DNA of 64,000 bases. It comes from Eubacteriales bacterium (GTDB lineage Bacteria > Bacillota > Clostridia > Oscillospirales > Butyricicoccaceae). A model generated the notes under the pieces. It was not told the DNA's origin, did not search any database, and saw nothing but the letters and a program-made list of their open reading frames with translations. Of the stretch, positions 9,603 through 26,496 are shown one piece after another. Numbering within the stretch: the first letter of the stretch is position 1; each line of letters starts with the position of its first letter. The DNA lies in NCBI GenBank assembly GCA_030539335.1, contig JAUNSG010000011.1, positions 19,238 to 83,237 on the forward strand, in the 5' to 3' direction. The position numbers and the translations under genes were made by a program.

Positions 9603-10169
9603 TCAATCATTCGGATCAATTTTTCGTATCACTCTGCATGGAACACCTCCTGCAAGCGAGTGATCCGGTATATCTGCGGTCACAACACTTCCTGCCGCAA
9701 TCACACACCCGGTTCCAATCGTCACGCCTGGCAGCACGGTTACATTTGCTCCTAGCCATACATGATCGCCGATGGTAATTGCCTTTGCCTGTTCCAGCCC
9801 CTGATCCCGCTCTCGATACGAAAGCGGATGATTTGCCGTATAAAATCCACAGGACGGACCGATAAATGCGTAATCGCCGATTGTAATCGGTGCACCGTCC
9901 ATAAAATAGCAATTCAAATTGACAAAAACCTTTTTTCCAAACTGGATATTCGTTCCATAATCGCAGAAAAACGGACTGCTGATCGCAAGCTCTTCCGGCT
10001 TGTAACCCAGCAGCTCTTCCAGTTTTTGCTGACGCTGTATCTCATCGCTCGGTCGGATGCGATTCAGCTCGTAGCACAGGTCCATCGCGTGTGTCCGTTC
10101 ATCCAGCAGATGTTTGTCGTAATTGGCATTATACCACTCTCCAGCCTTCATCTTTTGTTCTTCGGTCAT
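9603..10169 (-). CDS. maltose/galactoside O-acetyltransferase family protein
   Basis: Mac-type N-terminus, PFFCDYGTNI, hexapeptide repeats, AGGVPCRVIR. Confidence 0.9.
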   Translation of the reverse strand: MTEEQKMKAGEWYNANYDKHLLDERTHAMDLCYELNRIRPSDEIQRQQKLEELLGYKPEELAISSPFFCDYGTNIQFGKKVFVNLNCYFMDGAPITIGDYAFIGPSCGFYTANHPLSYRERDQGLEQAKAITIGDHVWLGANVTVLPGVTIGTGCVIAAGSVVTADIPDHSLAGGVPCRVIRKIDPND

Positions 10170-10586: not shown

Positions 10587-10624
10587 TTGACAAAATGGCA
10601 CAAATAAACTAATATATTAATATA
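10587..10624 (+). promoter_or_regulatory. sigmaA promoter with operator (ALDH)
   Basis: TTGACA 10587-10592, N17, TAATAT 10610-10615, within TAATATATTAATATA. Confidence 0.8.
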
Positions 10625-10660
10625 CCAAAAAGGCTTTGGACAGAAAGGCAGGTTGAAAGA

Positions 10661-12052
10661 ATGGGAGTTCTTACAGTTACCAATCCGATGACAGGTGAGG
10701 TCCTGGACAAGTTGACACTTTCTACGCATGAGGAAGTGTCTGCAATGGTAGAGGCAGCGGTTGCAGCACAGGAAAGCTGGGCGGCAACTCCGGTTTATGA
10801 GCGTGCAAAATATTTGTACCGTTTTGCCGACGCAATGGAGCAGGAAGAAGAGGTGATTTCGCGGCTATCTTCCATCGATATGGCGAAGCCGATTGCGCAG
10901 TCCCGTATAGAGACGGCGGATGGCATCAAGCTGCTGCGTGCCGCAGCAGAGCGGGCGAAGCACCTGTATGGTGACGTCCTGTCTGACAGCGGCCCGGGGT
11001 TCGAAGGCGATCTTGTGTTCACCAAGAGGGAACCACTCGGCACAATTGCGTGCATCATCCCGTTTAACTTCCCGATTGAGCTGACGTTCCAGAAGATTGC
11101 ACCGGCTTTGGCAATGGGCAATACGGTTCTGGTTAAGGCGCCGAGTTCCAACCCGTTGGCGGTCCTGTCGCTGGACAAGTACGCCAAAGCAGCAGGTTTC
11201 CCAGAGGGCGTGGTACAATTCTTTGTCTCCGAGCGGGATGTGGTCAATGAGTGCGTGCTGGCGAATCCCAAGGTGGATGCGGTCAGCTTGACCGGCAGCA
11301 CTGCCGCAGGCAAGAAGATCGTAGAGGCAGGAGCAGACACGCTCAAGCGCACCTTCCTGGAACTGGGCGGCAATGACGCATTGATTGTTTTTGAAGATGC
11401 AGATGTTGACAGGGCCGTAGAAGAAATGGTAACCAGCCGTCTGGAAAACAACGGACAGGTATGCTGTTCGTCTAAGCGGTTTATTGTTCAGCGAAAGATT
11501 TACAATTCGGTTGCCTCCAAGCTGCTGGAAAAGCTGAGTTCCCTCAAGCGTGGCGATGCATTGGAGGAAGATGCTGTAGTCACTGCTTTGGTTTCGGAAC
11601 AAGCGGCAAAGGCGGTAGAAGAACAGATTGCACATACGATAGAACAGGGGGCAAGGCTGCTGTATGGCGGCACCAGAGACGGCGCACGCATTGAACCGAC
11701 GGTTTTGCTGGATGTAACCCCGGAAATGGACATAGCATCTAACATGGAAATTTTTGGGCCGGTATTTCCGCTGATTCCGTTTGATACGGAAGAGGAGGGG
11801 ATCTCGATTGCCAACAATTCGATCTATGGCTTGTCTTCCGGCTTGATGACCAAGGACATGAATCGCGCATTCCGTGTAGCGAGCAAGCTCAAAGCTGGCG
11901 GCGCAGTGGTCAATGGCAGCGGCGGATATCGTCATCTGGATCAGCCGTTCGGAGGATTCAAGCAGAGCGGTCTGGGCCGGGAAGGGATTAGCATTTCCCT
12001 GGAAGAGTTTAGCCATATCAAAGTTTACGTCGTCAAAGGCGCATTCAATTAA
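10661..12052 (+). CDS. NAD(P)-dependent aldehyde dehydrogenase (lactaldehyde/succinate-semialdehyde DH-like)
   Basis: IIPFNFP, TGSTAAG, LELGGND, NGQVCCS (catalytic Cys), EIFGPV. Confidence 0.93.
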   Translation: MGVLTVTNPMTGEVLDKLTLSTHEEVSAMVEAAVAAQESWAATPVYERAKYLYRFADAMEQEEEVISRLSSIDMAKPIAQSRIETADGIKLLRAAAERAKHLYGDVLSDSGPGFEGDLVFTKREPLGTIACIIPFNFPIELTFQKIAPALAMGNTVLVKAPSSNPLAVLSLDKYAKAAGFPEGVVQFFVSERDVVNECVLANPKVDAVSLTGSTAAGKKIVEAGADTLKRTFLELGGNDALIVFEDADVDRAVEEMVTSRLENNGQVCCSSKRFIVQRKIYNSVASKLLEKLSSLKRGDALEEDAVVTALVSEQAAKAVEEQIAHTIEQGARLLYGGTRDGARIEPTVLLDVTPEMDIASNMEIFGPVFPLIPFDTEEEGISIANNSIYGLSSGLMTKDMNRAFRVASKLKAGGAVVNGSGGYRHLDQPFGGFKQSGLGREGISISLEEFSHIKVYVVKGAFN

Positions 12053-12082
12053 ATTTTCCTCCTTTTTCTCTCTCTCACACAT

Positions 12083-12184
12083 AGGAAGGCGCAGCATTGC
12101 GCCTTCCTGCATGGATACAAATTCCATTTTTCGCGTAGGATGAACGAACGCCTATCTCGTAGGAAGATAGGCGTTTGTTTCTTT
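12083..12184. terminator. two hairpins between convergent ALDH and B12-enzyme genes
   Basis: AGGAAGGCGC/GCGCCTTCCT (12083-12108) and AACGAACGCCTATCT/AGATAGGCGTTTGTT (12143-12179). Confidence 0.7.
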
Positions 12185-12190
12185 GCGTGA

Positions 12191-13966
12191 TTAATCCAGG
12201 TTCGAAAGCTGCTCTACGGTCAGGGCAATATCATTTTCGGCGTGAATGCCGAGATCCATCAGCATGTCGCCAATTTCGATTGGTTCCGAGTGACCGGGAA
12301 GGATTGCATTGAGCTTGCCACCCATAAAGATCCAATATTCTTTGCCGCGTTCCTCGGCAAGCTGGATGAGCTGACGGCCATAATCCAGAGCCTGGCCGTT
12401 GTGACAGCTGATGCCGATGTACTTGGTATCCACCTCATCCGCCAGGTCAAGCATGTCAACCGCATCCATATCGACACCGGCATTGACGGTTTCCGCTCCC
12501 ATCTCCTGCAAAACACCTTCGACAAGAACCAGGCCATACGTATGGGCATCGCCGGAGCCGACCACGACCTTTTTGCCGGTCAACGAACCGCGCAGTTGCT
12601 TGGCATCCAGACCGTCGATGATTTCCTGCTTCATCGCTAAGGTCTGCCGACCGAGTACCGTAGTGTAGAACGGCTTGATTTCCGTGTTTGCTGTGCCATA
12701 GGTCGAAGAGTGGAACATTTGCTCGTAACGGATCGGGTTCATTTCTGTGAGAACCAAAAGCATTTCCACCGGATCTTCGATGTCGATCCCCGCTTCTTTC
12801 AATCCCTCTAAGCTGTTGCGGAATAGCTTTTCGCCTTCTTCTGCCATGACATCGCGCATCTTTTCCAGCGGCGCAAAGTTGAAGTACGGAAGCCATTCGT
12901 CTGCCTTCTCTTCCGCACGCTTGCCGGCGGCAAAAATATCCTCCAGCTCCTGCAGCGTTGGAACACGCAGTTTCTCGGTGATGGAAACCGGATTGATGCC
13001 CAAACCCATGTGATATTTCTTTTCGACTAGAATTTCAAACAGCATTTCCGGAACGGAAACACCATAATTGCCATGGATGTCATGATCCCACTGCAAGTTG
13101 GTAGAACCGTTTAGGTAACGGAGAACCGGCTGGTCTTCGGTGGAGAGAACCTTATGCAGAGCCATTGCTACGGCACAGCGGGTGTCATTTTCACTCAGAA
13201 GACCGCCAAAGCCAATGGTATAGCGGGCGCCGCATAGGGTTGTGCAGATGTAGTGCTCCAACATGGCATAGCCAATATAGGAGGCGCAGTCCAAAAAGTA
13301 TCCGGCGTAACCGTCATCCAGATAGGTTTTTACTTCAAAGTATTCGTCACGTTTGGAGGCGACAACGCCCAGCGCTTTGACCATATTACACATGCGTTCG
13401 ACGTTGTCGTCATAGCCGAAAAAGCCCCAGTTAAACTGGCAGAATTCACCGATGGTTGGCGAACCATACTCTATTGCGAGAATGGTATTGGCCAGGCCGT
13501 TCGGTGTCGAGAGATGATAATCGTTGAAGGAGATATCGATCGGGCAGGCGTACTGCTGTACGGCGTAATCCTCCGGGGAATACATCTCATAGCTGGTAGT
13601 CGCGGGAGCCTTTTCACGCCATTCCGGAGGGAGGGCAACCAGGCCGCTTGGAATAGACTGAATCGAATGGATTTCCAGACCGGACCGCTGGGAGAATTCA
13701 TACAGCTTCTTTTCTGCCTCTACCTGTTCCTCCAGGGTGGCAAGTCCCAGAAGGATATTCCAATAGATTTTTCCCTGTTTCATCAAATCACGCTTCATTT
13801 CCGCATGATTTTTATATTTGTCCTGGCTGCGGATAAACCCACCGCGGCCAGCCTGGATGCTGTTGCCGATTTCTATGCCTTCCTTCAGCATGTCGCGTCC
13901 GTCGGGATGCTTTCCGGGCTTCAGGCTTTGAAGATATTCCAGCGAGACTTGATTTAGATGACCCAT
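12191..13966 (-). CDS. cobalamin-binding enzyme, 2-methyleneglutarate-mutase-like (putative AdoCbl radical mutase/lyase)
   Basis: 591 aa; C-terminal B12 Rossmann domain with SGDAHTYG (DxHxxG, His475), GISCHNG, FMGGKL; N-terminal segments (YLDDGYAG, ASYIG) match my recollection of Mgm; no CxxxCxxC. Confidence 0.75.
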   Translation of the reverse strand: MGHLNQVSLEYLQSLKPGKHPDGRDMLKEGIEIGNSIQAGRGGFIRSQDKYKNHAEMKRDLMKQGKIYWNILLGLATLEEQVEAEKKLYEFSQRSGLEIHSIQSIPSGLVALPPEWREKAPATTSYEMYSPEDYAVQQYACPIDISFNDYHLSTPNGLANTILAIEYGSPTIGEFCQFNWGFFGYDDNVERMCNMVKALGVVASKRDEYFEVKTYLDDGYAGYFLDCASYIGYAMLEHYICTTLCGARYTIGFGGLLSENDTRCAVAMALHKVLSTEDQPVLRYLNGSTNLQWDHDIHGNYGVSVPEMLFEILVEKKYHMGLGINPVSITEKLRVPTLQELEDIFAAGKRAEEKADEWLPYFNFAPLEKMRDVMAEEGEKLFRNSLEGLKEAGIDIEDPVEMLLVLTEMNPIRYEQMFHSSTYGTANTEIKPFYTTVLGRQTLAMKQEIIDGLDAKQLRGSLTGKKVVVGSGDAHTYGLVLVEGVLQEMGAETVNAGVDMDAVDMLDLADEVDTKYIGISCHNGQALDYGRQLIQLAEERGKEYWIFMGGKLNAILPGHSEPIEIGDMLMDLGIHAENDIALTVEQLSNLD

Positions 13967-13990
13967 AATTGTGTTCTCCTTTTTATTTTT

Positions 13991-15931
13991 TTAGGTCCAT
14001 TGCGGACTGCCGATAGCAGTAGCAACAATCTTTGATTGAATAAATGTTTTTTCTTCCGAGCCGACCGATTGGGTATAGGTTGGGATGATGGAATGACCAA
14101 CCGCACAGTTTCCACCGCCAGCGAGCGTTGCCTTCGCAGCGGCTTCGGTTTCGACCGTCTGAATGGCCCATTTTTCCGCGTCCTGCAAGTTGGGAAACCA
14201 GGTTGCTCCCCGCACGGAATGGACGACAAACCCTTTGTGATACTGGTCCGGACGAATTAAAGCCTCCGCAGTCAGAAGAACTTGCCCGACAGCGGCGCCG
14301 ATTGCATTGGCGACTTCTGCGTGTTCCGGAATCGTCAGATCCGTGTCAAGGGATTGACTGACCGTTGGAAACCAGGCAGCGACGGGCGCTCCGATTGCGA
14401 CGATTGGTTTTTTTAAAGACAGCTGTGACCGGAGGATTGGGTGATCGGAATCCAGCAGGAAACGGATACTTGGATGATAGAAATTGAATGTGCTGTGTTC
14501 GAAGTCCGCTGTGCTTTGCAGGCAGGCGATCTGAAGCTGACGATGGACTGCATCCAGACAGCTTTGCAAAAAGGAATCCGGAGTTTGTGCGGCCCGCTTT
14601 GCCAGAATGCCCAGTGCAGCGGCGGATGTTTTCGAATTTCCATGTACACGGCCGGCAGCATGAAGCAGATCGGTTGGCGTCAATGAGCACCGCTGCAACA
14701 CCCCGCGGCTGACATAGGAATCAAAGTCCAGCTTATCAAAGTCATGCCCCATCTTTTCGGAAAGATAGAACCGGGTATGCGGACCGTCGCGGAGGAGGGA
14801 AGTGAGTTTTTGCTCCTCGTAGTCCGCCTGCTCGGAAGGCTGTAGAAGTGTATAGCAGTCTACCGCCTGGCCGGTAAAGATCTCATGGGAATAGGAAGGC
14901 AGATAGGTTTCCCATTCCGCGATTAAATTGGGATTTTCCGTACCGGCCAGACAGAGCGGAATGACACGCTGTGGGCCGACAACAATATCCCCTTTGATAT
15001 TCCACTGGATGTAACTGTCACCGCCGATCCCATGTGTGGATATTTCAGCGGCACGCAGCTGTGTTTTCCAGCCGCCCACCGTAGCGCCGGAGTCCGAGAG
15101 GGAGATCTGTCCCTTGGTTACATTGGCGATATCCGTCGTCGTGCCGCCCATGTCAATGATGAGCGCGTCCTTGGACTGGGTTAAAAATAATCCGCCGGAG
15201 ATACTTGCAGCCGGGCCGGACAGGACCGTTTCGATCGGGCGGTTCAAGGCGAATTGATCCAACATCAGCGTGCCGTCGCCGCGGACAACCATGCACGGGG
15301 CATGGATGTTTCGCTCCTTTAACGCCCTCTGTACGGCGGCGATGAGGTGGGTGATATTGGGGATTAGAGCGGCATTCAGAACTGCGGTAACCGTGCGGTC
15401 GAAAAAGCCTAACGAATTGCTCAGTTCGTGCGCGCAGACAACCGGGATGGAGAGAATGCGCTGCACAGACGCTTTGACCTGAAGCTCATGCGCAGGGTTC
15501 CGCACGCTGGCAAAGCCGGAGATCGCAACCGCATCGATCTGACCACGCCAAGAAGCGGCAATCGACTCGATTTCGGCGGATTGCATAGGTTCTTTTTCTC
15601 GCCCTTTGATATCCAACTGCCCGGCGATCTGGTGGAGCTTATGCGCGGGAACTGCCTGCGCGTCTAAGGGACGCCCCATATACAGCAGACCGACCCGTCC
15701 TCCTCTCCCTTCCACCACGGCATTCGTAGCAAGCGTGGTGGAAAGGCAGACTGTAGAAATGGCATCCGGCTGCGAAAAGTGCAGATGTTCCAGGCTTTTG
15801 ACGATGCCGTGCAGCAGATTATTTTTTGTGGTATATGCTTTGGCTTTGTGAAGAATTCGGCGGCTGGCCGCGTCGATGATGACACTATCCGTGAAGGTTC
15901 CGCCCGTATCAATTCCGAGAATCACAGACAT
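13991..15931 (-). CDS. hydantoinase/oxoprolinase A-family ASKHA ATPase without a B subunit
   Basis: GIDTGGTFTD, IDMGGTTTD, SGPAAS, GIGGDS, ANAIGAA; 646 aa. Confidence 0.85.
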   Translation of the reverse strand: MSVILGIDTGGTFTDSVIIDAASRRILHKAKAYTTKNNLLHGIVKSLEHLHFSQPDAISTVCLSTTLATNAVVEGRGGRVGLLYMGRPLDAQAVPAHKLHQIAGQLDIKGREKEPMQSAEIESIAASWRGQIDAVAISGFASVRNPAHELQVKASVQRILSIPVVCAHELSNSLGFFDRTVTAVLNAALIPNITHLIAAVQRALKERNIHAPCMVVRGDGTLMLDQFALNRPIETVLSGPAASISGGLFLTQSKDALIIDMGGTTTDIANVTKGQISLSDSGATVGGWKTQLRAAEISTHGIGGDSYIQWNIKGDIVVGPQRVIPLCLAGTENPNLIAEWETYLPSYSHEIFTGQAVDCYTLLQPSEQADYEEQKLTSLLRDGPHTRFYLSEKMGHDFDKLDFDSYVSRGVLQRCSLTPTDLLHAAGRVHGNSKTSAAALGILAKRAAQTPDSFLQSCLDAVHRQLQIACLQSTADFEHSTFNFYHPSIRFLLDSDHPILRSQLSLKKPIVAIGAPVAAWFPTVSQSLDTDLTIPEHAEVANAIGAAVGQVLLTAEALIRPDQYHKGFVVHSVRGATWFPNLQDAEKWAIQTVETEAAAKATLAGGGNCAVGHSIIPTYTQSVGSEEKTFIQSKIVATAIGSPQWT

Positions 15932-16077: not shown

Positions 16078-17493
16078 TTACTTGATGTTGTATGTCTCAG
16101 AAACCTTGGCGATTTCAGCATCCAGGATATCAAAAATTTCGTCGACCTGTGCAATGGTGAGGTTGATCGGCGGGATAAAGGACAGGCGGTTGCCATAATA
16201 GCCGTTCAGCTGGGCGAGCAGACCGGCATCGCGCAGATTATTGACCAGTGCATGTGCTTCTTTCTTGGCCGGCTCCTTTGTCGTGCGGTCCCGAACCAGC
16301 TCCAGACCGAAGTATACGCCCTTTGCCGAGTAGGTACCAACGATGGGATACTTCTCCATGAGCTGATCCGCTCTCTTAACGATCTGCTCTCCGGCTCTGG
16401 TGCAGACCTCCAGAAGGTTGTCTTCTTCGATAATGTCAAGAACCGTGTTTGCTACGCGGCAGCCCATGGAATAGCCGGCATAGGTAGAGCAGATGAAGCT
16501 TACGTCAATGTCTTCAAACAGTTCGGCACGGCCGACGATACCAGACATTGGGATACCGGCGCCAAGCGCTTTGCCGAAGACCAGGATATCCGGGGCGACA
16601 TTTTCGTGCTCACATGCCCACATCTTGCCGGTACGGCCCATACCCGTCTGAACTTCGTCAAAGATCAGCAGGAAGCCGTATTTATCGGCCAGCTTGCGCA
16701 GTTCTCTGAGGAAGCCTTCCGGCGGAACGATGTATCCGGCCGAGCTTTGGCAGGGCTCAACGATCAGAGCAGCGACGTTGCAGATACCGGAATCCGGAGC
16801 ACCCATCGGCGTAACGCTGGTTGACATCATATTATCGATGAGCTGGACACACTGCTTTGCGCAATCGACACCGTCGCCGTCACCGTACGGGTTGCGGTAC
16901 GCATAGGGATAAGGGAACTGGTGGATGCAATTGTCCTGGGCCGGCATCGGGTTGTAATAGCTGGTCATGCGGCCGGAGCCGGTCAGTCCCATGGTCGCGG
17001 AGTTCTGGCCATGATAGGCGCCATAGAATGAAATGATGTGCTGGCGCTTGGTTGCATAGCGTGCCAAACGGATTGCATTTTCGACTGCATCCGAGCCGGA
17101 CAGGGCCAGACGGACACGCTTCGGGAAGTCACCCGGCGTGATGTCGATCAGACGGTTTACCAGCTTCAAACGCTCCGGAGTCGGGAAGTCAAACCAGAAA
17201 TCCAGCTCATTCATATACTGGTCGTACATTGCGTCGGCAATGCGCTTGTCAGAGTGGCCGAGGTTCATAGCGGACATGCCGGAGATACAGTCGATGTATT
17301 CCTTACCGTCAACGTCCCAGATGCGGTTACCCTTGCCTCTTTTGATAATCTGCGGATAGTCCCACTTGGTGAAGAGAACATTGCCCGGATGCTCGTGCTT
17401 CAGGAAGTCAATCAGCCCTTCCTTGTTGCCCGGAGTGACGCTCTCTGCGTTTTCAATGCGTTCCAGCAGTGCTTCATAAGGCTTCTTTGCCAT
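16078..17493 (-). CDS. class III PLP aminotransferase (omega-amine/GABA aminotransferase-like)
   Basis: SGSDAVE, AYHG, IFDEVQTGMGRTG, FGKALGAG (PLP Lys), STYAG. Confidence 0.93.
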   Translation of the reverse strand: MAKKPYEALLERIENAESVTPGNKEGLIDFLKHEHPGNVLFTKWDYPQIIKRGKGNRIWDVDGKEYIDCISGMSAMNLGHSDKRIADAMYDQYMNELDFWFDFPTPERLKLVNRLIDITPGDFPKRVRLALSGSDAVENAIRLARYATKRQHIISFYGAYHGQNSATMGLTGSGRMTSYYNPMPAQDNCIHQFPYPYAYRNPYGDGDGVDCAKQCVQLIDNMMSTSVTPMGAPDSGICNVAALIVEPCQSSAGYIVPPEGFLRELRKLADKYGFLLIFDEVQTGMGRTGKMWACEHENVAPDILVFGKALGAGIPMSGIVGRAELFEDIDVSFICSTYAGYSMGCRVANTVLDIIEEDNLLEVCTRAGEQIVKRADQLMEKYPIVGTYSAKGVYFGLELVRDRTTKEPAKKEAHALVNNLRDAGLLAQLNGYYGNRLSFIPPINLTIAQVDEIFDILDAEIAKVSETYNIK

Positions 17494-17506: not shown

Positions 17507-17523
17507 ATATATTAATATATTAG
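17507..17523 (-). promoter_or_regulatory. operator copy abutting the aminotransferase RBS
   Basis: ATATATTAATATATTAG directly upstream of the GGAGGT RBS. Confidence 0.75.
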
Positions 17524-17604
17524 ATTGGCTGATTTTTTTGGGCACAATCGATCTGTTTGAGGCCGATGTACCCAATGGAGATGCCGCTCCGTGATTTGTT
17601 ATAA

Positions 17605-17635
17605 ATATATTAATATATTAGTGCGAAAGTGTCAA
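17605..17635 (-). promoter_or_regulatory. sigmaA promoter with operator (aminotransferase-ATPase-mutase operon)
   Basis: minus strand TTGACA (17635-17630)-N17-TAATAT (17612-17607); ATATATTAATATATTAG at 17605-17621. Confidence 0.8.
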
Positions 17636-17679
17636 GGGGAAAATGAAAAAAACAAAGAGAAAAATTTTTGTGAAAGGTG

Positions 17680-17712
17680 TTGACAAACAATGAGTAATAT
17701 ATTAATATATAA
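17680..17712 (+). promoter_or_regulatory. sigmaA promoter with operator (ald)
   Basis: TTGACA 17680-17685, N17, TAATAT 17703-17708; TAATATATTAATATAT. Confidence 0.8.
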
Positions 17713-17787: not shown

Positions 17788-18903
17788 ATGATCGTAGGAC
17801 TGGTTAAAGAAATCAAGAATCACGAGTACCGCGTGGGACTGACCCCGAATGATGTCAAGGCATATGTGGATGCCGGCAATAAAGTGATCGTTGAAACTGC
17901 CGCGGGTGAGGGCTCCGGGTTTACCAATGAGGAGTACACAGCAGCCGGCGCGGCCATTCTGGATACTGCGGCGGAAGTATGGGCCAAGGCTGACATGATC
18001 GTCAAGGTAAAGGAGCCGATTGCGTCGGAATATCCGTATCTGAAGAAGGATCAGATTCTGTATACTTATCTGCATCTGGCTGCGGACCGTCCGTTGACCG
18101 AGGCCCTCTTGAAGGCTGGAACCAAGGCGGTTGCTTATGAGACCATCACTGGAAAGAACGGCGGCCTGCCGTGCCTGACCCCGATGAGCCAGATTGCCGG
18201 ACGCATGGCGATTCAGGAGGGCGCGAAGTATTTGGAGAAGCCGTTCGGTGGCCGCGGCATGCTCTTAGCTGGCGTTCCGGGCGTTGAGAAGGCAAATGTT
18301 GTGATTCTTGGCGGCGGCGGAGTTGGAACCAATGCGTGCAAGATGGCGGTTGGAATGGGTGCAAATGTAACGATTCTGGACGTAAGTGCAGAGCGTCTGG
18401 CCTATTTAGATGATATTTTTGGAAGCCGCATCCAGACGCTGTACAGCAGCCGTGCAAATATTCTGGAATCCATCGCAAAGGCAGACCTGGTAATCGGCGC
18501 TGTTCTGCTGCCGGGCCGCAAGACACCGAACCTGATTCGGAAGGATGACCTGAAGCTCATGAAGAAGGGTGCGGTTGTCGTAGATGTTGCCGTTGACCAG
18601 GGCGGATGCATCGAGACGACCCATGCCACCACGCACGAGGAACCGGTATTCCTTGTAGATGGCATTGTTCACTACTGCGTTGCGAATATGCCGGGTGCCG
18701 TTTCGCGTACCTCGACGCTGGCGCTGGCAAACACCACACTGGCCCATGGCCTGGCGCTGGCAAACAAGGGATTCGAGCAGGCGATCAGAGAAGATGCTTG
18801 CCTGGCACAGGGAGTGAACTGCTACGACGGCAAGTGCACCTATGCCGGTGTTGCAGAAGCGCTGGACCTGGAGTTCCATGATATCCATGATCTGATTGGT
18901 TAA
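17788..18903 (+). CDS. ald: alanine dehydrogenase
   Basis: KEIKNHEYRVGLTP, KVKEP, YLHLAA, VILGGGGVG, DVAVDQGG, YCVANMPG. Confidence 0.96.
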   Translation: MIVGLVKEIKNHEYRVGLTPNDVKAYVDAGNKVIVETAAGEGSGFTNEEYTAAGAAILDTAAEVWAKADMIVKVKEPIASEYPYLKKDQILYTYLHLAADRPLTEALLKAGTKAVAYETITGKNGGLPCLTPMSQIAGRMAIQEGAKYLEKPFGGRGMLLAGVPGVEKANVVILGGGGVGTNACKMAVGMGANVTILDVSAERLAYLDDIFGSRIQTLYSSRANILESIAKADLVIGAVLLPGRKTPNLIRKDDLKLMKKGAVVVDVAVDQGGCIETTHATTHEEPVFLVDGIVHYCVANMPGAVSRTSTLALANTTLAHGLALANKGFEQAIREDACLAQGVNCYDGKCTYAGVAEALDLEFHDIHDLIG

Positions 18904-19048: not shown

Positions 19049-19066
19049 AAAGTGAGGGCGGTTGAT

Positions 19067-19846
19067 ATGAAATCAATATGCTATTCCAGCCGTGGCCAGA
19101 CTGTTTTCGGGTATGCACATGTACCTCAGACCAGGGGGAAAGCGCCGGCAATTCTGATGTGCCACGGATTTACGGGCTGTGCACAGGAAGGATCACGGCT
19201 GTTTGTACGATTTGCAGAGCAGGCATGCCGGCTTGGATTTTATGTCATGCGGATCGATTTTTTGGGTTCGGGGAACAGCGAACTGGATTTTGCAACGTAT
19301 ACTACGCCAAGCGGATGGATTGAGGACGCGAAAAATGGCATCCGGTTTTTAAAAGAGCAGCCGGAGGTGGACCCGGATCGGATCGCGATTCTTGGAGTCA
19401 GTCTCGGCGGATTTACTGCACTCATGACAGGAGCGGAGACCGATGTCGCGGCGGTGGTCGGCTGGGCTCCGGTGCTCAATCCTGCAAAAACCTTCCGTGG
19501 GATTTTGACGGAAAATAATTGGGATTATCTATTGGCGGGAAACCGGACAATCGAGTATATCTACTGTGGAAATCATTTTGCAGTCGGCAGTAAATTTGTA
19601 CAGGATCTGGAACGAATGTCGGTAACGGAGAGCTTAAAGCGGTATCGGGATATCCCGGTCTTGATTATGCAGGGAAGCAGCGATGCGGTGATCGACCCGC
19701 AGGATTCCGTAAAGCTGAAGCAATCCGGCGTATTCCCCTTTCAGCATGTCATGGTTGAAGGGGAAGAGCATTCCTTCCTGCTCCATGAGAAGAGCAATTT
19801 TTCCACGACGCTCGACTTCTTGCGCCGGGCGTTACTGGCCGTATAA
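19067..19846 (+). CDS. alpha/beta-fold serine hydrolase (esterase/amidase-like)
   Basis: CHGFTG, GVSLGG nucleophile elbow, DAVID, EEHSF; ATG at 19067 preferred over GTG at 19052. Confidence 0.88.
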   Translation: MKSICYSSRGQTVFGYAHVPQTRGKAPAILMCHGFTGCAQEGSRLFVRFAEQACRLGFYVMRIDFLGSGNSELDFATYTTPSGWIEDAKNGIRFLKEQPEVDPDRIAILGVSLGGFTALMTGAETDVAAVVGWAPVLNPAKTFRGILTENNWDYLLAGNRTIEYIYCGNHFAVGSKFVQDLERMSVTESLKRYRDIPVLIMQGSSDAVIDPQDSVKLKQSGVFPFQHVMVEGEEHSFLLHEKSNFSTTLDFLRRALLAV

Positions 19847-19909: not shown

Positions 19910-20638
19910 CTATCTCATGAGCTGCCCTCCGTTGACATCCAGTGTTTCGCCGGTAATATAACCGGCATCGTCCGAAGTCAAAAAGCAGATGGCATGGGCC
20001 ACCTCCTCGGGAGAAGCGGCACGGCCAAGCGGTATCCCGTCGGCGGGAATGCCCTCCGTACGGGACATCGGCGTATCCACAGTCCCGGGGGAGACAGCGT
20101 TGACCGTGATGCCATGCTCTGCCCCCTGAAGGGCAAAGCATTTGGTCATCGCCAACAGGCCGCCCTTGGAGGCAGCATAGTGGATGCCGGAGAAAAAGGC
20201 TCCGCGCTGTCCGGCAATGGAGGAGACATTGACAATCCTGCCGTAGTGCTGCTGTTTCATGAAGGAAAATGCATGCCGACAGCAGAAAAATGGCGCCTTC
20301 AGATTGACGGTCATCATCCAATCCCATTCCGCCTCGGTGATTTCCTCCATTGTGTGAACGTTGGAGATACCGGCGCTGTTTACCAGGACGTCCAGCCGGT
20401 GATGACGGATGGAGATGGAATCCATCATGTCCTCGATCTGGCCTGGATCGGACAGATCACAGGGAATAAATTCCCCTGAGCCGCCGCGATCATATATTTT
20501 GCAGAGAGTTTTTTTCGCGTTTTCGGTGGAACGGCCGGTAAACAGAACATAGTCGCCGCGGGAAGCCAATTCAACGGCGGTTGCCTGGCCAATGCCGCTG
20601 GTTCCGCCCGTGACCAAAGAGATTCGTTTGTTACCCAT
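19910..20638 (-). CDS. short-chain dehydrogenase/reductase (FabG-like)
   Basis: TGGTSGIG, NSAG, HYAASK, LDVNGG. Confidence 0.9.
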   Translation of the reverse strand: MGNKRISLVTGGTSGIGQATAVELASRGDYVLFTGRSTENAKKTLCKIYDRGGSGEFIPCDLSDPGQIEDMMDSISIRHHRLDVLVNSAGISNVHTMEEITEAEWDWMMTVNLKAPFFCCRHAFSFMKQQHYGRIVNVSSIAGQRGAFFSGIHYAASKGGLLAMTKCFALQGAEHGITVNAVSPGTVDTPMSRTEGIPADGIPLGRAASPEEVAHAICFLTSDDAGYITGETLDVNGGQLMR

Positions 20639-20659: not shown

Positions 20660-21187
20660 TTAAAATTCGATTCCTTCGCGGCTGGGCTGGCCACGATCAA
20701 ATGGATGCTTTATCTTGCAGATGTGGGATACATAATCCGCGTGACGCAGCAGGGTATCGCTGGGATTTTGTCCGGTAAGGATCACTTCCAGGTGGGATGG
20801 ACGATGGATCAGACAGGAAATCAGCTCTTCTTCGGCGATCAGGCCGGAAGCCACCGCGTAGACGGATTCATCTAGGAAGAGAAGATCGTATTCCGTGGAC
20901 CGGGCAAAGAGGTCCTTCAACAGCATGCGGTAGTGTTGAATGGTTTCCTCCCGCTCCGCGGGCGTCATTTGAAAGCTGAATTTTACATTGTCCGGTCCGT
21001 TTAACCGGGTTACGTTCGGCAGATGAGAAAGGGAACGGATCTCACCGGTGGAATTATCTTTCAAAAATTGATAGATCAGCACACGTTTTCCGCGCCCGGC
21101 GGCACGGATGCACAATCCCATTCCGGCGCTGGTTTTTCCTTTCCCGTCGCCGCAGTAGATGTGAATACAGCCTTTTTGTGTTTTCAT
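20660..21187 (-). CDS. cobO: cob(I)alamin/corrinoid adenosyltransferase (CobO/BtuR type)
   Basis: IHIYCGDGKGKTSA, QFLK, LDE, EVILTG, HPFDRG...REGIEF. Confidence 0.92.
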   Translation of the reverse strand: MKTQKGCIHIYCGDGKGKTSAGMGLCIRAAGRGKRVLIYQFLKDNSTGEIRSLSHLPNVTRLNGPDNVKFSFQMTPAEREETIQHYRMLLKDLFARSTEYDLLFLDESVYAVASGLIAEEELISCLIHRPSHLEVILTGQNPSDTLLRHADYVSHICKIKHPFDRGQPSREGIEF

Positions 21188-21274: not shown

Positions 21275-21320
21275 AATTGTGAGGATATAGAAAAATTATA
21301 TTGTATTGAGGAGTAAAACA

Positions 21321-22004
21321 ATGGCAGAGCTGAAAAGAAAGCGAGGACAGAATCGCACGGAAGTATATAACACGCTGAAGGATTCGATTCAATATCTGGA
21401 ACTGATGCCGGGATCGATTATCCACGAAAACGAATTGATCGAGCAGCTTGGTGTCAGCCGCACCCCCATTCGGGAAGCGCTGATCCGTCTGTCCAATGAG
21501 TACATGGTAGAGGTATATCCGCAGAGAGGTACATATGTATCAGCGATTGATTTCCATCTGGCACATGAGATTGCCTATATGCGGCACATTCTGGATACCG
21601 AAGTTTGTATGACTCTATGTAAAGGCAAGGTTCCGCTTCAGGATGCAGTGGATCAGGAGCTGTATTTTATGTCGCAGTGCGTAAAGAAGCAGGATGTTGT
21701 CGGATACATCAAGCACGACAATGCGTTCCATAATGAGATTTTTCGCGTGGCCGGTCACGAGATGATTTGGGAAATTATCTCGAATTCCCGCGCCCATTAC
21801 AATCGCATGCTCACATTGGATCTCCGACGTCCCGGCGTTCTGGAAAAATCGTATCAGGAGCATCAGGACATTGTCCGTGCGATTGAGAGCGGAGATGAGA
21901 CGGCATTGATGCAGATTTTGGACCGCCATCATGACCATCAAGATATGGAACGGCGTGAGGCGGAGATCCGTGCGATGTTTCCCGACTATTTTGCAAATGA
22001 ATAA
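21321..22004 (+). CDS. GntR-family regulator (FCD domain)
   Basis: ELIEQLGVSRTPIREAL winged HTH; DNAFHNEI FCD motif. Confidence 0.95.
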   Translation: MAELKRKRGQNRTEVYNTLKDSIQYLELMPGSIIHENELIEQLGVSRTPIREALIRLSNEYMVEVYPQRGTYVSAIDFHLAHEIAYMRHILDTEVCMTLCKGKVPLQDAVDQELYFMSQCVKKQDVVGYIKHDNAFHNEIFRVAGHEMIWEIISNSRAHYNRMLTLDLRRPGVLEKSYQEHQDIVRAIESGDETALMQILDRHHDHQDMERREAEIRAMFPDYFANE

Positions 22005-22147: not shown

Positions 22148-22939
22148 ATGTATATTGATAAGGAATGTGTGCGCGGCTACAACGAGTATATCCGCTGCGA
22201 TGTCAACAACGGAGAAAACAGCTATATGGATGTCGCGTTGCTTATCATGGAGGATGGAGATACGTATTCCTTCCATGAAAAAGAGAAAGAAATGGCATGG
22301 ATCCTGTTCCAGGGCAAAGCGACTGTGGAATATGACGGCAAGACGGTAGAGATGGATCGCCCGAATCCCTTTGACTACAGCACCTACTGCCTTCATCTCG
22401 CGGCCGGCGGGTCGTGCAAGCTGACGGCACACGACCATTGTGAGTTTTATGTGCAGAAGACCTACAATGATAAGAAGTTTGAGAATCATTTGTATCTGCC
22501 GGAGGAGACCGATACCTGGCGCAGAGGCGCCGACGGGGAATGTGCCGGATGCATCAAGCGTGACGTCCGCACCAGCTTTGACTATGAGATCAATCCGCTG
22601 TCCAACATGGTTCTGGGCGAGGTGGTCAATCTTCCGGGCAAGTGGTCTTCCTACCCGCCGCACTGGCATCCGCAGCCGGAGGTTTATTTCTATCACTTTG
22701 AGAAGAAGGAGGGCTTTGGCGCAGGCTGGGTAGACGGCAAGCTGGAGGAGCTGCATCACAACGGCCTCGCCATCATCACCAAGGATACGCACTCCATGGT
22801 GATGGCGCCGGGATATGCATGCTGTTACGCATGGGGAATCCGCCATCTGCCGGACAATCCCTGGAAGAAGACCCGCATTGATGATCCGGTCCATGAGTGG
22901 CTGTATGATCCGCAGGCGGAGTTCTGGAAGGGAGAGTAA
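22148..22939 (+). CDS. IolB-like (5-deoxy-glucuronate isomerase/KduI cupin family) isomerase
   Basis: GEVVNLPGKWSSYPPHWH, EVYFY, TH..V.APGY. Confidence 0.85.
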   Translation: MYIDKECVRGYNEYIRCDVNNGENSYMDVALLIMEDGDTYSFHEKEKEMAWILFQGKATVEYDGKTVEMDRPNPFDYSTYCLHLAAGGSCKLTAHDHCEFYVQKTYNDKKFENHLYLPEETDTWRRGADGECAGCIKRDVRTSFDYEINPLSNMVLGEVVNLPGKWSSYPPHWHPQPEVYFYHFEKKEGFGAGWVDGKLEELHHNGLAIITKDTHSMVMAPGYACCYAWGIRHLPDNPWKKTRIDDPVHEWLYDPQAEFWKGE

Positions 22940-24756: not shown

Positions 24757-26496
24757 ATGAATTTTTTTAGTTCAATGGGATTCACGGCGGTATCGTTTCT
24801 TGCGTTTACCGTATTAGTTGCTGTAATTGCCTACTTTTACAGCAGAAATCGGGATATGAGCTCAGAGAGCGGATATTATCTGGCGGGCAGATCGCTGCCG
24901 GGTATTGTCATTGCCGGTTCGCTTATTATGACCGATTTATCGGCATCACAGCTGATTGGCAACAATGGACAATCGGTACAAGTCGGAATGGGCGTATTTG
25001 CGGCACAGGGATTTGGATTCTCTGGTATGATTCTGGTTGCACTGCTATTGGTTCCAAAATATTTGCAATCAGGAATCAGCACGATGCCGGAGTTTTATGA
25101 GCTTCGCTATGACAAATTCACCCGCAATTTGACCAGCATTATCATGATGATAAGTTATATTGTCGTTTTTCTGCCAAGCACCTTATATGCCGGCGCACAG
25201 GTATTCATCACGATTTTCAATGTAGATGGCATGCTGGGGATCTCTTACACAATGGCGATGACTATCATTTGTGTGATTATTGCGATCATCGGATTCTGTT
25301 ACGCGTTCTTTGGTGGTCTGAAGGCAATTGCAATGTCGGATACGATCAACGGCTTGGGAATGCTGGTTGGAGGCATTATAATAACGATTGCGGGAATGAT
25401 ATACCTGTCGAGTATATTAGGAGGAGACGGGTCGTTCCTAGACGGTTTGGATAAGTTCCTTCATACAGATCCTGCGATGATGAATATTATTAATGAAGCG
25501 GATTCCAACGAGCCGTGGTGGCCATGGCCGGTTATTTTAACCGGATTGACGGTAAATAACGTGTATTTCTGGGGCTGCGATCAGGCTATTGTCCAGCGCG
25601 CATTTGGAGCCAAGAGTATGGCCCATGCACAGAAGGGCATGATTTATGCCGGACTGTTGACATTGATCACCCCGTTTTTCCTGGTATTGCCGGGCATTAT
25701 TGCAAAATTTGTATTCACGGATATGGATTGGGCAACGAGTGGCGACCTTGCTTTCCCGATGCTGATTAATGCCGTACTGCCAAGGCCGGTTCTGGGATTC
25801 TTTGCAGCGTGTGTATTTGGCGCAATTATATCGACCTTCAATTCGTATTTGAACTCCGCATCTTCTATTTTTGCGATCAATATTTACAGCGATATTATTC
25901 ATCCGGAGGCGGATGAAAAGACCGTTGTTAAGTATGGCAGACTGTTTAGCGTCGTAGTTGCTGTCTGCGCGACCGCTATTGCGCCTTTCTTGGCGAATGT
26001 CAATGGTATTTTTTCATGGATGAATATGGCATTAGGTCTGTTTAATACACCAATTCTGATCATCACCTTGTTTGCGATCTTCTCAAAAAGAGCGCCTAGA
26101 TATCTGGGCAAGATTATCATTCCGATACATATTGTGATATATTTGCTGCTAAACTATCTGCTGCCGCATGTGATTCCGTTCTTTGGAACCATTCACTATA
26201 TGTATTACACGTTCGTACTATTTATTTTCGATGTCATTGTTTCGTTGATTGTCACGAAGATGAATCCGCTGGAGGAGGAGTACACGCTGCCAAACAACCC
26301 GCCGAAGGATATGGATCTGTCTCCATGGAAGTATCGAATTCATGCGTCGGTTGCGACACTGGCAATCGTGGCGATTATTTACGTTATATTCTCTCCGCTC
26401 GGATTCGGCAAGTGCGACGAGACGACCTGGGAGAGATACCAGAACAGCATGGACCGTTCTGCGGTTACCTGTGTCGTTGACCAGAGCGTACTATAA
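24757..26496 (+). CDS. sodium:solute symporter (YidK/SGLT-like)
   Basis: YYLAGRSL, STMPEFYELRY, YFWGCDQAIVQR, STFNSYLNS. Confidence 0.93.
   Translation: MNFFSSMGFTAVSFLAFTVLVAVIAYFYSRNRDMSSESGYYLAGRSLPGIVIAGSLIMTDLSASQLIGNNGQSVQVGMGVFAAQGFGFSGMILVALLLVPKYLQSGISTMPEFYELRYDKFTRNLTSIIMMISYIVVFLPSTLYAGAQVFITIFNVDGMLGISYTMAMTIICVIIAIIGFCYAFFGGLKAIAMSDTINGLGMLVGGIIITIAGMIYLSSILGGDGSFLDGLDKFLHTDPAMMNIINEADSNEPWWPWPVILTGLTVNNVYFWGCDQAIVQRAFGAKSMAHAQKGMIYAGLLTLITPFFLVLPGIIAKFVFTDMDWATSGDLAFPMLINAVLPRPVLGFFAACVFGAIISTFNSYLNSASSIFAINIYSDIIHPEADEKTVVKYGRLFSVVVAVCATAIAPFLANVNGIFSWMNMALGLFNTPILIITLFAIFSKRAPRYLGKIIIPIHIVIYLLLNYLLPHVIPFFGTIHYMYYTFVLFIFDVIVSLIVTKMNPLEEEYTLPNNPPKDMDLSPWKYRIHASVATLAIVAIIYVIFSPLGFGKCDETTWERYQNSMDRSAVTCVVDQSVL

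What the first reader, a model, noticed from the sequence alone, without database searches (positions are those of the whole stretch)
12191..13966. Single-chain 2-methyleneglutarate-mutase-like B12 enzyme outside the nicotinate pathway
Seen: His-on DxHxxG motif (D473-A-H475-TYG), SxHxG and GG motifs in a C-terminal Rossmann domain, preceded by a domain of about 460 aa. There is no radical-SAM CxxxCxxC, no KamE-type PLP-Lys insert after DxHxxG, and the protein is far too long for a methyltransferase corrinoid protein. From memory, segments such as PDGRDMLKEG, YLDDGYAGYF and ASYIG..LEHYI...LCG align with Eubacterium barkeri Mgm; this is recalled, not computed. Inference: a new AdoCbl carbon-skeleton mutase or eliminase with an unknown substrate.
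Basis: partly seen in the sequence, partly recalled or inferred. Interest (0 to 1): 0.85.

Follow-up and report, generated by a model that had tools for sequence, protein, structure and literature searches.

The report
Uncharacterised B12 radical enzyme, not Mgm
The gene encodes an intact vitamin-B12 radical enzyme from a widespread, unstudied family that shares only its domain layout with 2-methyleneglutarate mutase, and it sits in a conserved, co-regulated gene cluster that points to breakdown of a sugar-like amine or polyol by B12 chemistry nobody has described.

Summary
The ORF (12191-13966, minus strand, 591 aa) and its motifs are real: DAHTYG at 473-478, SCHNG at 520-524, GG at 549-550, and no CxxxCxxC.

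An AlphaFold model (pLDDT 87.7) shows an 8-stranded barrel plus a C-terminal Rossmann B12 domain. Its best PDB fold matches are AdoCbl isomerases: methylmalonyl-CoA mutase, ornithine and lysine aminomutases, and GlmE.

The recalled similarity to Mgm is wrong. I recovered two genuine Mgm orthologues from nicotinate-fermentation clusters. BLASTP, a superfamily HMM and hhalign match them only in the B12 domain.

The protein belongs to an unnamed superfamily of about 590-aa proteins (304 representatives at 50% identity). Every member I examined lies near an ASKHA ATPase, adjacent in all but one case.

Here it is the third gene of an operon: class-III aminotransferase, partnerless hydantoinase-A-type ATPase, B12 enzyme. 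The operon belongs to a GntR regulon with alanine dehydrogenase, an aldehyde dehydrogenase, a KduI/IolB isomerase, an SDR, an alpha/beta hydrolase, a CobO adenosyltransferase and a sugar-type transporter. This gene set recurs in at least 10 loci from other organisms.

A 56% paralogue with its own aminotransferase/sugar-kinase/aldolase cluster lies 15 kb upstream of the window.

Most likely function: an AdoCbl radical enzyme acting on an amino- or polyhydroxy sugar derivative. The substrate is unknown.

The parts
12191..13966 (-). 591-aa B12 enzyme (whole ORF including stop)
12587..13966 (-). N-terminal part, residues 1-460: an 8-stranded (beta/alpha) barrel (strands at about 68-73, 101-104, 144-147, 171-174, 211-215, 248-253, 282-286, 323-325) plus a helical linker (338-455)
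   Evidence: AlphaFold model. Foldseek matches to MCM, GlmE and KamD. No sequence-family match.
12194..12586 (-). C-terminal Rossmann B12-binding domain, residues 461-591
   Evidence: PF02310. PDB sequence hits to IcmF, MetH and HcmB B12 domains.
12533..12550 (-). His-on motif DAHTYG (D473...G478)
   Evidence: D473 and H475 are conserved across the whole superfamily.
13991..15931 (-). 646-aa hydantoinase-A-type ASKHA ATPase with no HyuB partner. It lies 24 bp upstream of the B12 gene and is the putative reactivase/chaperone.
   Evidence: Pfam. Model and Foldseek. No PF02538 in the genome. Lies beside the B12 gene in the window and 10 other examined loci of this superclade; its paralogue lies 12 kb from the paralogous B12 gene.
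16078..17493 (-). 471-aa class-III (GABA-AT group) aminotransferase-family protein, first gene of the operon
   Evidence: Conserved in related loci.
17607..17635 (-). Promoter-like site TTGACA-17-TAATAT for the aminotransferase-ATPase-B12 operon. Its -10 element overlaps an operator copy.
17510..17712 (.). Cluster of operator copies (TATTAATATATTA) between the divergent aminotransferase and alanine dehydrogenase genes
   Evidence: 16 copies in the window, all between 10.3 and 26.7 kb, against 0.02 expected by chance
17788..18903 (+). Alanine dehydrogenase
   Evidence: TIGR00518, 505.7 bits, above its cut-off. Conserved in related loci.
10661..12052 (+). NAD(P)-dependent aldehyde dehydrogenase, convergent with the B12 gene
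   Evidence: Conserved or replaced by AFOR in related loci.
22148..22939 (+). KduI/IolB-family cupin isomerase. It is a second copy beside the canonical iolB on another contig.
   Evidence: Conserved in related loci.
21306..22004 (+). GntR/FCD regulator, probable repressor of the regulon
   Evidence: Conserved in related loci.
20660..21187 (-). CobA/CobO/BtuR ATP:corrinoid adenosyltransferase
   Evidence: Also present in L007.
19910..20638 (-). SDR oxidoreductase
   Evidence: SDRs are present in L007, L009, L017 and L006.
19052..19846 (+). alpha/beta hydrolase, a possible lactonase or esterase
24757..26496 (+). Sodium:solute symporter of the YidK type (PRK10484, above its cut-off), with an operator copy upstream
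9603..10169 (-). Maltose/galactoside O-acetyltransferase-like hexapeptide transferase, with operator copies in its upstream region

Best explanation
The gene encodes a member of an unnamed, widespread superfamily of single-chain, His-on adenosylcobalamin radical enzymes. Each has an N-terminal (beta/alpha)8 barrel and a C-terminal Rossmann B12 domain.

Shown:
- The fold and the cofactor motif.
- The barrel has no detectable homology to Mgm.
- The gene is the third in an operon of class-III aminotransferase, hydantoinase-A-type ATPase and B12 enzyme.
- That operon belongs to a GntR-operator regulon. The regulon also holds alanine dehydrogenase, an aldehyde dehydrogenase, a KduI/IolB isomerase, an SDR, an alpha/beta hydrolase, a CobO adenosyltransferase and a sugar-type transporter.
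- The same gene set recurs in other phyla, often with a CUT2 sugar ABC transporter.

Inferred:
- CobO supplies AdoCbl.
- The partnerless ASKHA ATPase exchanges or repairs damaged cofactor. This is the role proposed for GlmL/MutL, which takes its place in a sister clade and in the real Mgm operon.
- The enzyme abstracts a hydrogen atom from a sugar-derived substrate carrying a vicinal amino-alcohol or diol. It then performs a 1,2-shift or elimination that yields a deoxy-carbonyl product.
- The aminotransferase, with alanine dehydrogenase recycling pyruvate/alanine, either removes the substrate's own amino group or installs a transient one on a keto-sugar. The second option follows DesI/DesII logic.
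- The product is then isomerised by the KduI/IolB protein, cleaved, and the resulting aldehyde is oxidised.

The substrate is unknown.
For: Fold:
- AlphaFold pLDDT 87.7, pTM 0.85.
- Foldseek top hits are MCM (E 3e-9, TM 0.52), ornithine 4,5-aminomutase, GlmE (TM 0.55 on the target) and KamD. MetH scores lower, TM 0.27-0.37.

Cofactor:
- DxHxxG, SxH and GG motifs are present. D473 and H475 are conserved superfamily-wide.
- CobO is in the regulon.

Family:
- 304 representatives at 50% identity.
- None carries a functional name.

Partner ATPase:
- It lies beside the B12 gene in the window and 10 other examined loci.
- It is replaced by a MutL/GlmL type in a sister clade and in Mgm operons.
- The genome has no HyuB.

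Context:
- The set of aminotransferase, AlaDH, KduI, GntR and ALDH/AFOR is conserved.
- CUT2 sugar transporters occur in L006, L009, L010, L017 and the paralogue cluster. Their binding protein is nearest to ribose/sugar-type CUT2 binding proteins.
- A transketolase or TAL/FSA aldolase is present in L017 and L009.
- The operator occurs 16 times against 0.02 expected, with divergent promoters.

Paralogue:
- Its cluster holds GDH, ALDH, two sugar isomerase/epimerase-type barrels, a class-II ketose-bisphosphate aldolase, a Zn-ADH, an FGGY kinase, a HemL-like aminotransferase, a CUT2 transporter and a second HydA-type ATPase.

Active site:
- Residues conserved superfamily-wide in the barrel are mostly acidic (D149, D218, D226, E237, E331) with one Arg (R117). 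This fits a cationic or polyhydroxy substrate better than a dicarboxylate.

Precedent:
- Aminotransferase followed by radical deamination is how DesI/DesII deoxygenate a sugar (PMC11434129).
Against: - No biochemical data exist, and no substrate was identified.
- All known His-on AdoCbl enzymes are carbon-skeleton mutases or PLP aminomutases, not eliminases, so the eliminase-type chemistry would be unprecedented for this fold.
- If the enzyme itself released ammonia from a natural amine, the aminotransferase would be redundant. The order of steps is therefore inferred, not shown.
- The aminotransferase's nearest solved relatives are amino-acid racemases and GABA aminotransferases, not sugar aminotransferases.
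- The ATPase's nearest structures are catalytic ATPase subunits of carboxylases and lactamases. None of its 50 listed Foldseek matches is annotated as a B12-enzyme reactivase.
- Active-site residues were read from conservation plus secondary structure, not from coordinates.
Confidence: 0.6

Rival explanations
1. It is a carbon-skeleton mutase in the strict sense, of the glutamate-mutase/Mgm/MCM type. It would rearrange a CoA-free acid, amino acid or aldehyde intermediate of the pathway. One example is the aldehyde or 2-oxo/amino acid made by the aminotransferase, with a formyl, acyl or glycyl group migrating.
For: - Every characterised His-on barrel-plus-Rossmann AdoCbl enzyme without PLP is a carbon-skeleton mutase (established knowledge).
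- The best fold matches are MCM and GlmE.
- One Arg (R117) is conserved superfamily-wide and could hold a carboxylate.
- The aminotransferase is closest to enzymes acting on amino acids.
- The ALDHs resemble succinate-semialdehyde and lactaldehyde dehydrogenases.
Against: - The barrel is acid-rich with few basic residues.
- No CoA ligase, CoA transferase or thioesterase is in the conserved set.
- The transporters are of the sugar/polyol type.
- The KduI/IolB isomerase and the transketolase, aldolase and kinase genes point to sugar-like intermediates.
Confidence: 0.25
2. It is a true 2-methyleneglutarate mutase, with the nicotinate genes located elsewhere in the genome.
For: Only the domain order and the length (591 against about 620 aa).
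Against: - Two Mgm orthologues from complete nicotinate clusters share only the B12 domain with it.
- PrpF/Mii is absent from this 100%-complete genome and from 20 relatives.
- The helper is HydA-type, not GlmL-type.
Confidence: 0.01
3. It is a corrinoid protein used for methyl transfer or another non-radical role, not an AdoCbl radical enzyme.
For: - Weak NCBIfam and PDB hits of the B12 domain to MtbC, MtgC and MetH.
- MetH appears among the Foldseek hits.
Against: - Those hits cover the Rossmann domain only and fall far below their cut-offs.
- No B12-binding_2 cap (PF02607) is detected.
- No methyltransferase genes are in the cluster.
- TM-scores favour the mutases.
- CobO and an ASKHA helper are present.
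Confidence: 0.04
4. The hydantoinase-A-type ATPase is not a reactivase but a catalytic partner. It would activate the substrate with ATP, for example as an enol-phosphate as in acetone carboxylase or caprolactamase, before or after the B12 step.
For: - The best structural matches are the ATPase subunits of N-methylhydantoinase, acetone and acetophenone carboxylase, and caprolactamase, TM 0.55-0.65.
- It carries Hydant_A_N and Hydantoinase_A domains.
Against: - Those enzymes need a HyuB-type partner, which is absent from the genome.
- In a sister clade and in Mgm operons the same position is held by GlmL/MutL-type proteins.
- The N-terminus has a weak MutL/GlmL match.
Confidence: 0.1

Closest known systems
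2-Methyleneglutarate mutase (Mgm, EC 5.4.99.4) of Eubacterium barkeri and its orthologues in nicotinate-fermentation clusters (here L014:8145-10004 and L024:6139-8001)
   Same: - Single chain of about 600 aa.
- Large N-terminal catalytic part followed by a C-terminal DxHxxG B12 domain.
- No CoA ester.
- Accompanied by an ASKHA-type accessory ATPase.
   Different: - No detectable sequence similarity outside the B12 domain.
- The helper is hydantoinase-A type, not GlmL/MutL.
- The context is aminotransferase/sugar genes rather than Mii, DmdAB, Dml and enamidase.
- Mii is absent from the genome.
Glutamate mutase GlmE/GlmS with GlmL/MutL (PDB 1cb7, 1i9c)
   Same: - The barrel is structurally alignable to GlmE (TM 0.46 on the query, 0.55 on the target).
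- The Rossmann domain is alignable to GlmS (TM 0.72 on the target).
- His-on cofactor binding and a CoA-free substrate.
- An ASKHA helper in the operon.
   Different: - Fused into one chain.
- No PF06368 match.
- 12% identity.
- The barrel's conserved residues are mainly acidic, whereas GlmE uses three arginines to hold glutamate (established knowledge).
Methylmalonyl-CoA mutase family (PDB 8dyl, 2xij, 1req)
   Same: Best overall fold match, with barrel plus C-terminal Rossmann domain in one chain.
   Different: - 10-12% identity.
- About 130 residues shorter.
- No MeaB-type G-protein and no acyl-CoA genes in the cluster.
DesI/DesII (aminotransferase plus radical-SAM deaminase of TDP-desosamine biosynthesis; PMC11434129), with ethanolamine ammonia-lyase as a mechanistic comparison
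   Same: This is an analogy of logic only. An aminotransferase is coupled to a radical enzyme acting on a vicinal amino-alcohol of a sugar, giving a deoxy-keto sugar.
   Different: - DesII is a radical-SAM enzyme and EAL is a base-on AdoCbl enzyme. Neither shares this protein's family.
- The analogy is inferred from gene context and was not tested.

Membership tests
2-methyleneglutarate mutase (Mgm) | Sequence homology of the catalytic (non-B12) part to Mgm | tested here: not met
   BLASTP against two Mgm orthologues gives only 24% over 83 aa of the B12 domain, or nothing. The superfamily HMM at --max matches mainly HMM positions 446-553, the B12 domain, plus one 2-bit stretch in the second Mgm. 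hhalign aligns only the B12 domain, probability 12-16%.
2-methyleneglutarate mutase (Mgm) | Nicotinate-fermentation context: Mii/PrpF, GlmL-type protein, DmdAB aconitase-type dehydratase, Dml lyase | tested here: not met
   The real clusters L014, L024 and L013 show that context. None of these genes is in the window. PF04303 is absent from the genome and 20 relatives.
2-methyleneglutarate mutase (Mgm) | Single chain with a C-terminal DxHxxG B12 domain | tested here: met
2-methyleneglutarate mutase (Mgm) | Interconverts 2-methyleneglutarate and (R)-3-methylitaconate | not testable with these tools
   Needs an enzyme assay.
His-on AdoCbl isomerases (barrel plus Rossmann; MCM, Glm, aminomutases) | DxHxxG ... 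SxL ... GG cofactor-binding fingerprint in a Rossmann domain | tested here: met
   DAHTYG at 473-478, SCH at 520-522 (His in place of Leu), GG at 549-550. PF02310 scores above its cut-off.
His-on AdoCbl isomerases (barrel plus Rossmann; MCM, Glm, aminomutases) | (beta/alpha)8 substrate barrel that packs on the corrin | tested here: met
   By a confident model only: (pLDDT 87.7) and Foldseek to MCM, GlmE, OAM and KamD. Packing against the cofactor was not modelled.
His-on AdoCbl isomerases (barrel plus Rossmann; MCM, Glm, aminomutases) | Uses adenosylcobalamin and forms a substrate radical | not testable with these tools
   Indirect support only: CobO adenosyltransferase in the regulon and an ASKHA helper.
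Glutamate mutase E subunit | Met_asp_mut_E (PF06368) sequence family | tested here: not met
   No hit at E <= 0.01. No PDB sequence hit to GlmE.
PLP-dependent aminomutases (KamDE, OraSE) | Aminomutase sequence families and a PLP-lysine in the B12 subunit | tested here: inconclusive
   No Pfam or PDB sequence hit to them. Fold matches are weaker than to MCM. The PLP-lysine position was not checked residue by residue.
Corrinoid methyltransferase proteins / MetH | B12-binding_2 helical cap (PF02607) and cognate methyltransferases | tested here: not met
   No PF02607 hit. No methyltransferase genes nearby. NCBIfam MtbC/MtgC scores are 17-24 bits against cut-offs of 310-350.
B12-dependent radical SAM enzymes | CxxxCxxC cluster motif and the PF04055 domain | tested here: not met
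Hydantoinase/oxoprolinase/acetone-carboxylase ATPases (for the partner gene) | HyuA-type ATPase working with a HyuB-type subunit | tested here: not met
   The HyuA fold and domains are present, but PF02538 is absent from the whole genome and from all examined loci.

The most novel reading that the evidence does not exclude
The family would be the first His-on, mutase-fold AdoCbl enzyme to work as an eliminase on sugars. A keto-sugar or cyclitol would be transaminated (alanine as donor, recycled by alanine dehydrogenase). It would then be radically deaminated to a deoxy-keto sugar. That would be a catabolic, B12-based counterpart of the DesI/DesII deoxygenation trick. It would be serviced by a new class of B12 reactivase built on a partnerless hydantoinase-A ATPase.
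Probability: 0.2. Interest if true: 0.85.

Novelty: new variant of a known kind. Interest (0 to 1): 0.68.

Why it matters
The list of reactions known for adenosylcobalamin is short and has hardly grown in decades. This protein belongs to a large, phylogenetically scattered family with the right fold and cofactor motif and its own helper ATPase. The family has no known reaction.

In this orthologue group the neighbours are unusually informative. They are an aminotransferase with an amino-acid dehydrogenase, sugar-type transporters, a KduI/IolB isomerase and aldehyde oxidisers. That turns 'unknown B12 enzyme' into a bounded experimental question.

Solving it would add a B12 reaction class or substrate class and a new reactivase type. 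It would also add a catabolic route present in gut, rumen and environmental anaerobes. Finally, it removes a tempting mis-annotation: 'Mgm-like' or 'methylmalonyl-CoA mutase cobalamin-binding subunit', as some sources name these proteins.

Tried and rejected
1. Direct look-up of Mgm failed. The PNAS 2006 nicotinate paper is not held, and no database name 'methyleneglutarate mutase' appeared among homologues.
   - I reached Mgm indirectly. E. coli YbhH pulled the sequence of E. barkeri Mii (PDB 3g7k) out of a PDB alignment.
   - A homologue search then led to nicotinate clusters.
2. My single genome-contig scan was run with one protein, not an alignment, so it returned only close relatives.
3. 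I first suspected that the alphaproteobacterial clade (Ruegeria, Bosea) was the proteobacterial Mgm. Its context is Peptidase_M24 and HalD, with no nicotinate genes, so I rejected this.
4. Taurine/isethionate and other sulfonate routes were considered because of the aminotransferase/AlaDH pair and the nearby glycyl-radical enzyme. I dropped them because:
   - the GRE lies outside the operator regulon;
   - it is not conserved with the family;
   - the transporters are of the sugar type.
5. Plain myo-inositol catabolism was considered because of the many Iol-like families. The genome already has canonical iolD and iolB on another contig, so this cluster serves something else, possibly a related compound.
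6. Literature searches for a characterised member found nothing.
7. The KduI-like protein has no solved relative by sequence.
Full report
**Observation.** The ORF at 12191-13966 on the minus strand is intact: 591 aa with an ATG start.
- Pfam finds only PF02310 (B12-binding) at residues 471-558, E 1.9e-9, above its cut-off.
- NCBIfam and the PDB sequence search likewise match only this domain, all far below family cut-offs. The hits are GlmS, MtbC, IcmF and MetH.
- There is no CxxxCxxC motif.
- The first 460 residues match no curated family.

**Fold.** I built an AlphaFold model from 39 homologues (alignment A1). It is confident: pLDDT 87.7, pTM 0.85.
- It shows eight strand-helix repeats between residues 68 and 335, a helical linker (338-455) and a Rossmann domain.
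- Foldseek against the PDB puts AdoCbl isomerases first: human and bacterial methylmalonyl-CoA mutase (E 3e-9, TM 0.52), ornithine 4,5-aminomutase, the GlmE barrel (TM 0.55 on the target) and lysine 5,6-aminomutase.
- Methionine synthase appears with lower TM, 0.27-0.37.

**Is it Mgm-like?** No tool gave me Mgm directly, so I reached it through its neighbour Mii.
- E. coli YbhH pulled the sequence of E. barkeri 3-methylitaconate isomerase (PDB 3g7k) out of a PDB alignment.
- A search with those letters found a 99%-identical protein and many at 70-85%.
- The 99% protein sits on a short contig followed by a MutL/GlmL gene and a PEP-mutase/ICL-type lyase.
- An 82% orthologue lies in a full nicotinate cluster. 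It holds a molybdenum hydroxylase, an amidohydrolase, aconitase large and small subunits, a 619-aa B12 protein, PrpF/Mii, MutL and a PEP_mutase/ICL lyase.
- A Sporomusa genome has the same core, a 620-aa B12 protein flanked by aconitase subunits, PrpF/Mii, MutL and a PEP_mutase/ICL lyase.
- The two B12 proteins are 70% identical to each other.
- The C-terminal tail upstream of the 99% Mii resembles theirs. I take these proteins as genuine Mgm orthologues.

Against them, the query shows the following.
- BLASTP gives only 24% identity over 83 residues of the B12 domain (E 0.028), or nothing.
- An HMM of the query's whole superfamily, with all filters off, essentially matches them only at positions 446-553.
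- hhalign aligns only the B12 domain, at 12-16% probability.
- The recalled strings PDGRD, YLDDG, ASYIG and LEHYI are absent from both.
- PrpF/Mii is absent from this 100%-complete genome and from 20 relatives.

The Mgm resemblance is one of architecture only.

**The family.**
- About 270 close relatives (57-88% identity) exist. They are named at most 'cobalamin B12-binding domain-containing protein' or 'methylmalonyl-CoA mutase cobalamin-binding subunit'.
- An exhaustive phmmer search of 1.8 billion representatives finds 304 clusters. Many are full-length (about 585-600 aa) at 25-50% identity, and they fall into several well-supported clades.
- None carries a functional name.
- D473, H475, the GG pair and a set of barrel residues (R117, D149, D218, D226, E237, T289, N300, E331) are conserved across all clades.
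- The family is patchy. It occurs in 3 of 399 sampled genomes of the class. Within the genus, only this genome has the orthologue.

**Surroundings.** The gene is third in an operon.
- A class-III aminotransferase-family gene (16078-17493) comes first, then a 646-aa hydantoinase-A-type ATPase (13991-15931). The gap before the B12 gene is 24 bp.
- A TTGACA-17-TAATAT promoter lies at 17635-17607. It is divergent from an identical one for alanine dehydrogenase.
- The operator TATTAATATATTA occurs 16 times in the window against 0.02 expected, and every copy lies between 10.3 and 26.7 kb. Copies sit in front of these two units, the ALDH, an O-acetyltransferase, the alpha/beta hydrolase, the KduI/IolB gene and a YidK-type sodium:solute symporter.
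- A GntR/FCD regulator, an SDR and a CobA/CobO adenosyltransferase lie inside the same block.

The core set recurs with 58-88% orthologues in Butyricicoccus, Ruminococcus, Lachnospiraceae and 'Eubacterium' MAGs.
- The core is GntR, aminotransferase, ATPase, B12 enzyme and KduI. Alanine dehydrogenase and an ALDH or a tungsten-type aldehyde:ferredoxin oxidoreductase usually accompany it.
- Frequent additions are a CUT2 sugar ABC transporter, SDR/Zn-ADH/GFO_IDH_MocA dehydrogenases, a glyoxalase-fold protein, and a split transketolase or a TAL/FSA aldolase.
- The CUT2 binding protein is nearest to ribose/sugar-type CUT2 binding proteins.

**A second copy.** Fifteen kb upstream of the window on the same contig lies a 56% paralogue. 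Its operon holds:
- glutamate dehydrogenase and an ALDH;
- two xylose-isomerase-like barrels;
- a class-II ketose-bisphosphate aldolase;
- a Tdh/IolM-like Zn-ADH and a xylulokinase-like FGGY kinase;
- a HemL-like class-III aminotransferase;
- a CUT2 transporter;
- a second HydA-type ATPase, 49% identical over the N-terminal 324 residues to the first.

It lacks the operator. This gives two independent pairings of this enzyme with the same kinds of partners: an aminotransferase, an amino-acid dehydrogenase that recycles the amino acceptor or donor, an ALDH, and sugar-processing enzymes with sugar transporters. That makes an amino-/polyhydroxy sugar-derived substrate the most economical reading. 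The genome already has canonical iolD and iolB elsewhere, so this is not ordinary inositol catabolism.

**The partner ATPase.**
- Its model (pLDDT 86.8) matches the ATPase subunits of N-methylhydantoinase, acetone and acetophenone carboxylase, and caprolactamase, TM 0.55-0.65.
- Those enzymes need a HyuB-type subunit, and none exists in the genome.
- The ATPase stays beside the B12 gene even in a 43% clade that has lost the other neighbours.
- A more distant clade carries a GlmL/MutL-type protein in the same position, as do the real Mgm operons.
- Its N-terminus has a weak MutL/GlmL match.
- I therefore read it as a cofactor-repair chaperone. This is inferred, and a catalytic role remains a rival.

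**Mechanism proposed.**
- Shown: the fold, the cofactor motif, the operon and regulon structure, and the conservation of neighbours.
- Inferred: CobO makes AdoCbl, and the enzyme abstracts a hydrogen atom and shifts or eliminates a vicinal OH or NH3+ on a sugar-derived substrate to give a deoxy-carbonyl compound. The KduI/IolB-type protein then performs the aldose-ketose isomerisation its relatives perform on deoxy-sugar acids. A transketolase or aldolase cleaves the product, and ALDH or AFOR oxidises the aldehyde.
- The aminotransferase with AlaDH or GDH either removes the substrate's own amine or installs a transient one on a keto-sugar made by the dehydrogenases. The second option mirrors DesI/DesII, where transamination followed by radical deamination deoxygenates a sugar (PMC11434129). 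It would explain why neutral-sugar transporters, dehydrogenases, an aminotransferase and an ammonia-recycling dehydrogenase travel together.
- The main rival is a true carbon-skeleton mutase acting on an acid, amino-acid or aldehyde intermediate. Every known PLP-free His-on AdoCbl enzyme is of that kind.

**Verdict.**
- I found no paper describing this family.
- It is a new family within the known kind 'barrel plus Rossmann AdoCbl radical enzymes'. It comes with a new helper type and an undescribed pathway.

Noticed in passing
G000 contig C25:1-19300 (locus L022), just upstream of the window. The paralogue is at L022:3796-5556.: A second B12 enzyme, 56% identical, sits in its own operon. The operon holds GDH, ALDH, two xylose-isomerase-like barrels, a class-II ketose-bisphosphate aldolase, a Zn-ADH, an FGGY kinase, a HemL-like aminotransferase, a CUT2 ABC transporter and a second HydA-type ATPase. 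It has no copy of the window's operator.
   Followed up: partly
window 10332-26650: The operator TATTAATATATTA occurs 16 times (0.02 expected), only inside 10.3-26.7 kb. Copies overlap the -10 elements of TTGACA-N17-TAATAT promoters.
   Followed up: yes
window 22145-23461 (-): A 438-aa ORF with no Pfam match lies antisense to the conserved KduI/IolB gene. It is probably not a gene.
   Followed up: partly
window 27179-30522 (-): A glycyl-radical enzyme (PFL-like plus Gly_radical) and its radical-SAM activase sit just outside the operator regulon. They are not conserved with the B12 family.
   Followed up: no
window 5702-8512 (+): A 936-aa fusion of an Old-Yellow-Enzyme/pyridine-nucleotide-disulphide reductase with an acetoacetate-decarboxylase-family domain. 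It is followed by an SDR and preceded by a PucR regulator.
   Followed up: no
G000 contig C21:8282-11073: Canonical iolD (824 bits, above its cut-off) lies next to a second KduI/IolB gene. The genome therefore has an ordinary inositol locus besides the B12 cluster.
   Followed up: partly
L011:13688-15850, L016:7657-9810, L017:13763-17373: In several related loci a tungsten-type aldehyde:ferredoxin oxidoreductase, preceded by an 83-85-aa protein (ThiS-like in L017), sits beside the B12/ATPase pair (beside the B12 gene only in L016). In L011 and L016 it appears instead of an ALDH; in L017 it accompanies one.
   Followed up: no
L016:11934-15613: One 61% orthologue is followed by two tandem HydA-type ATPase genes (660 and 570 aa). 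No KduI gene or AT3/AlaDH pair lies beside it; a smaller Aminotran_3 gene sits about 7 kb upstream.
   Followed up: no
L023:6506-9764 and L008:7867-11794: Other clades of the superfamily have different partners. One very common clade (412 sequences in its 90% cluster) pairs with a MutL/GlmL-type ATPase and an SDR. An alphaproteobacterial clade sits with two M24 peptidase-family genes and a HalD-family gene.
   Followed up: partly
L014 and L024: Nicotinate-fermentation clusters with Mgm, Mii, a GlmL-type protein, DmdAB and Dml occur in an unnamed MAG and in Sporomusa carbonis. The GlmL-type gene always follows mii.
   Followed up: partly
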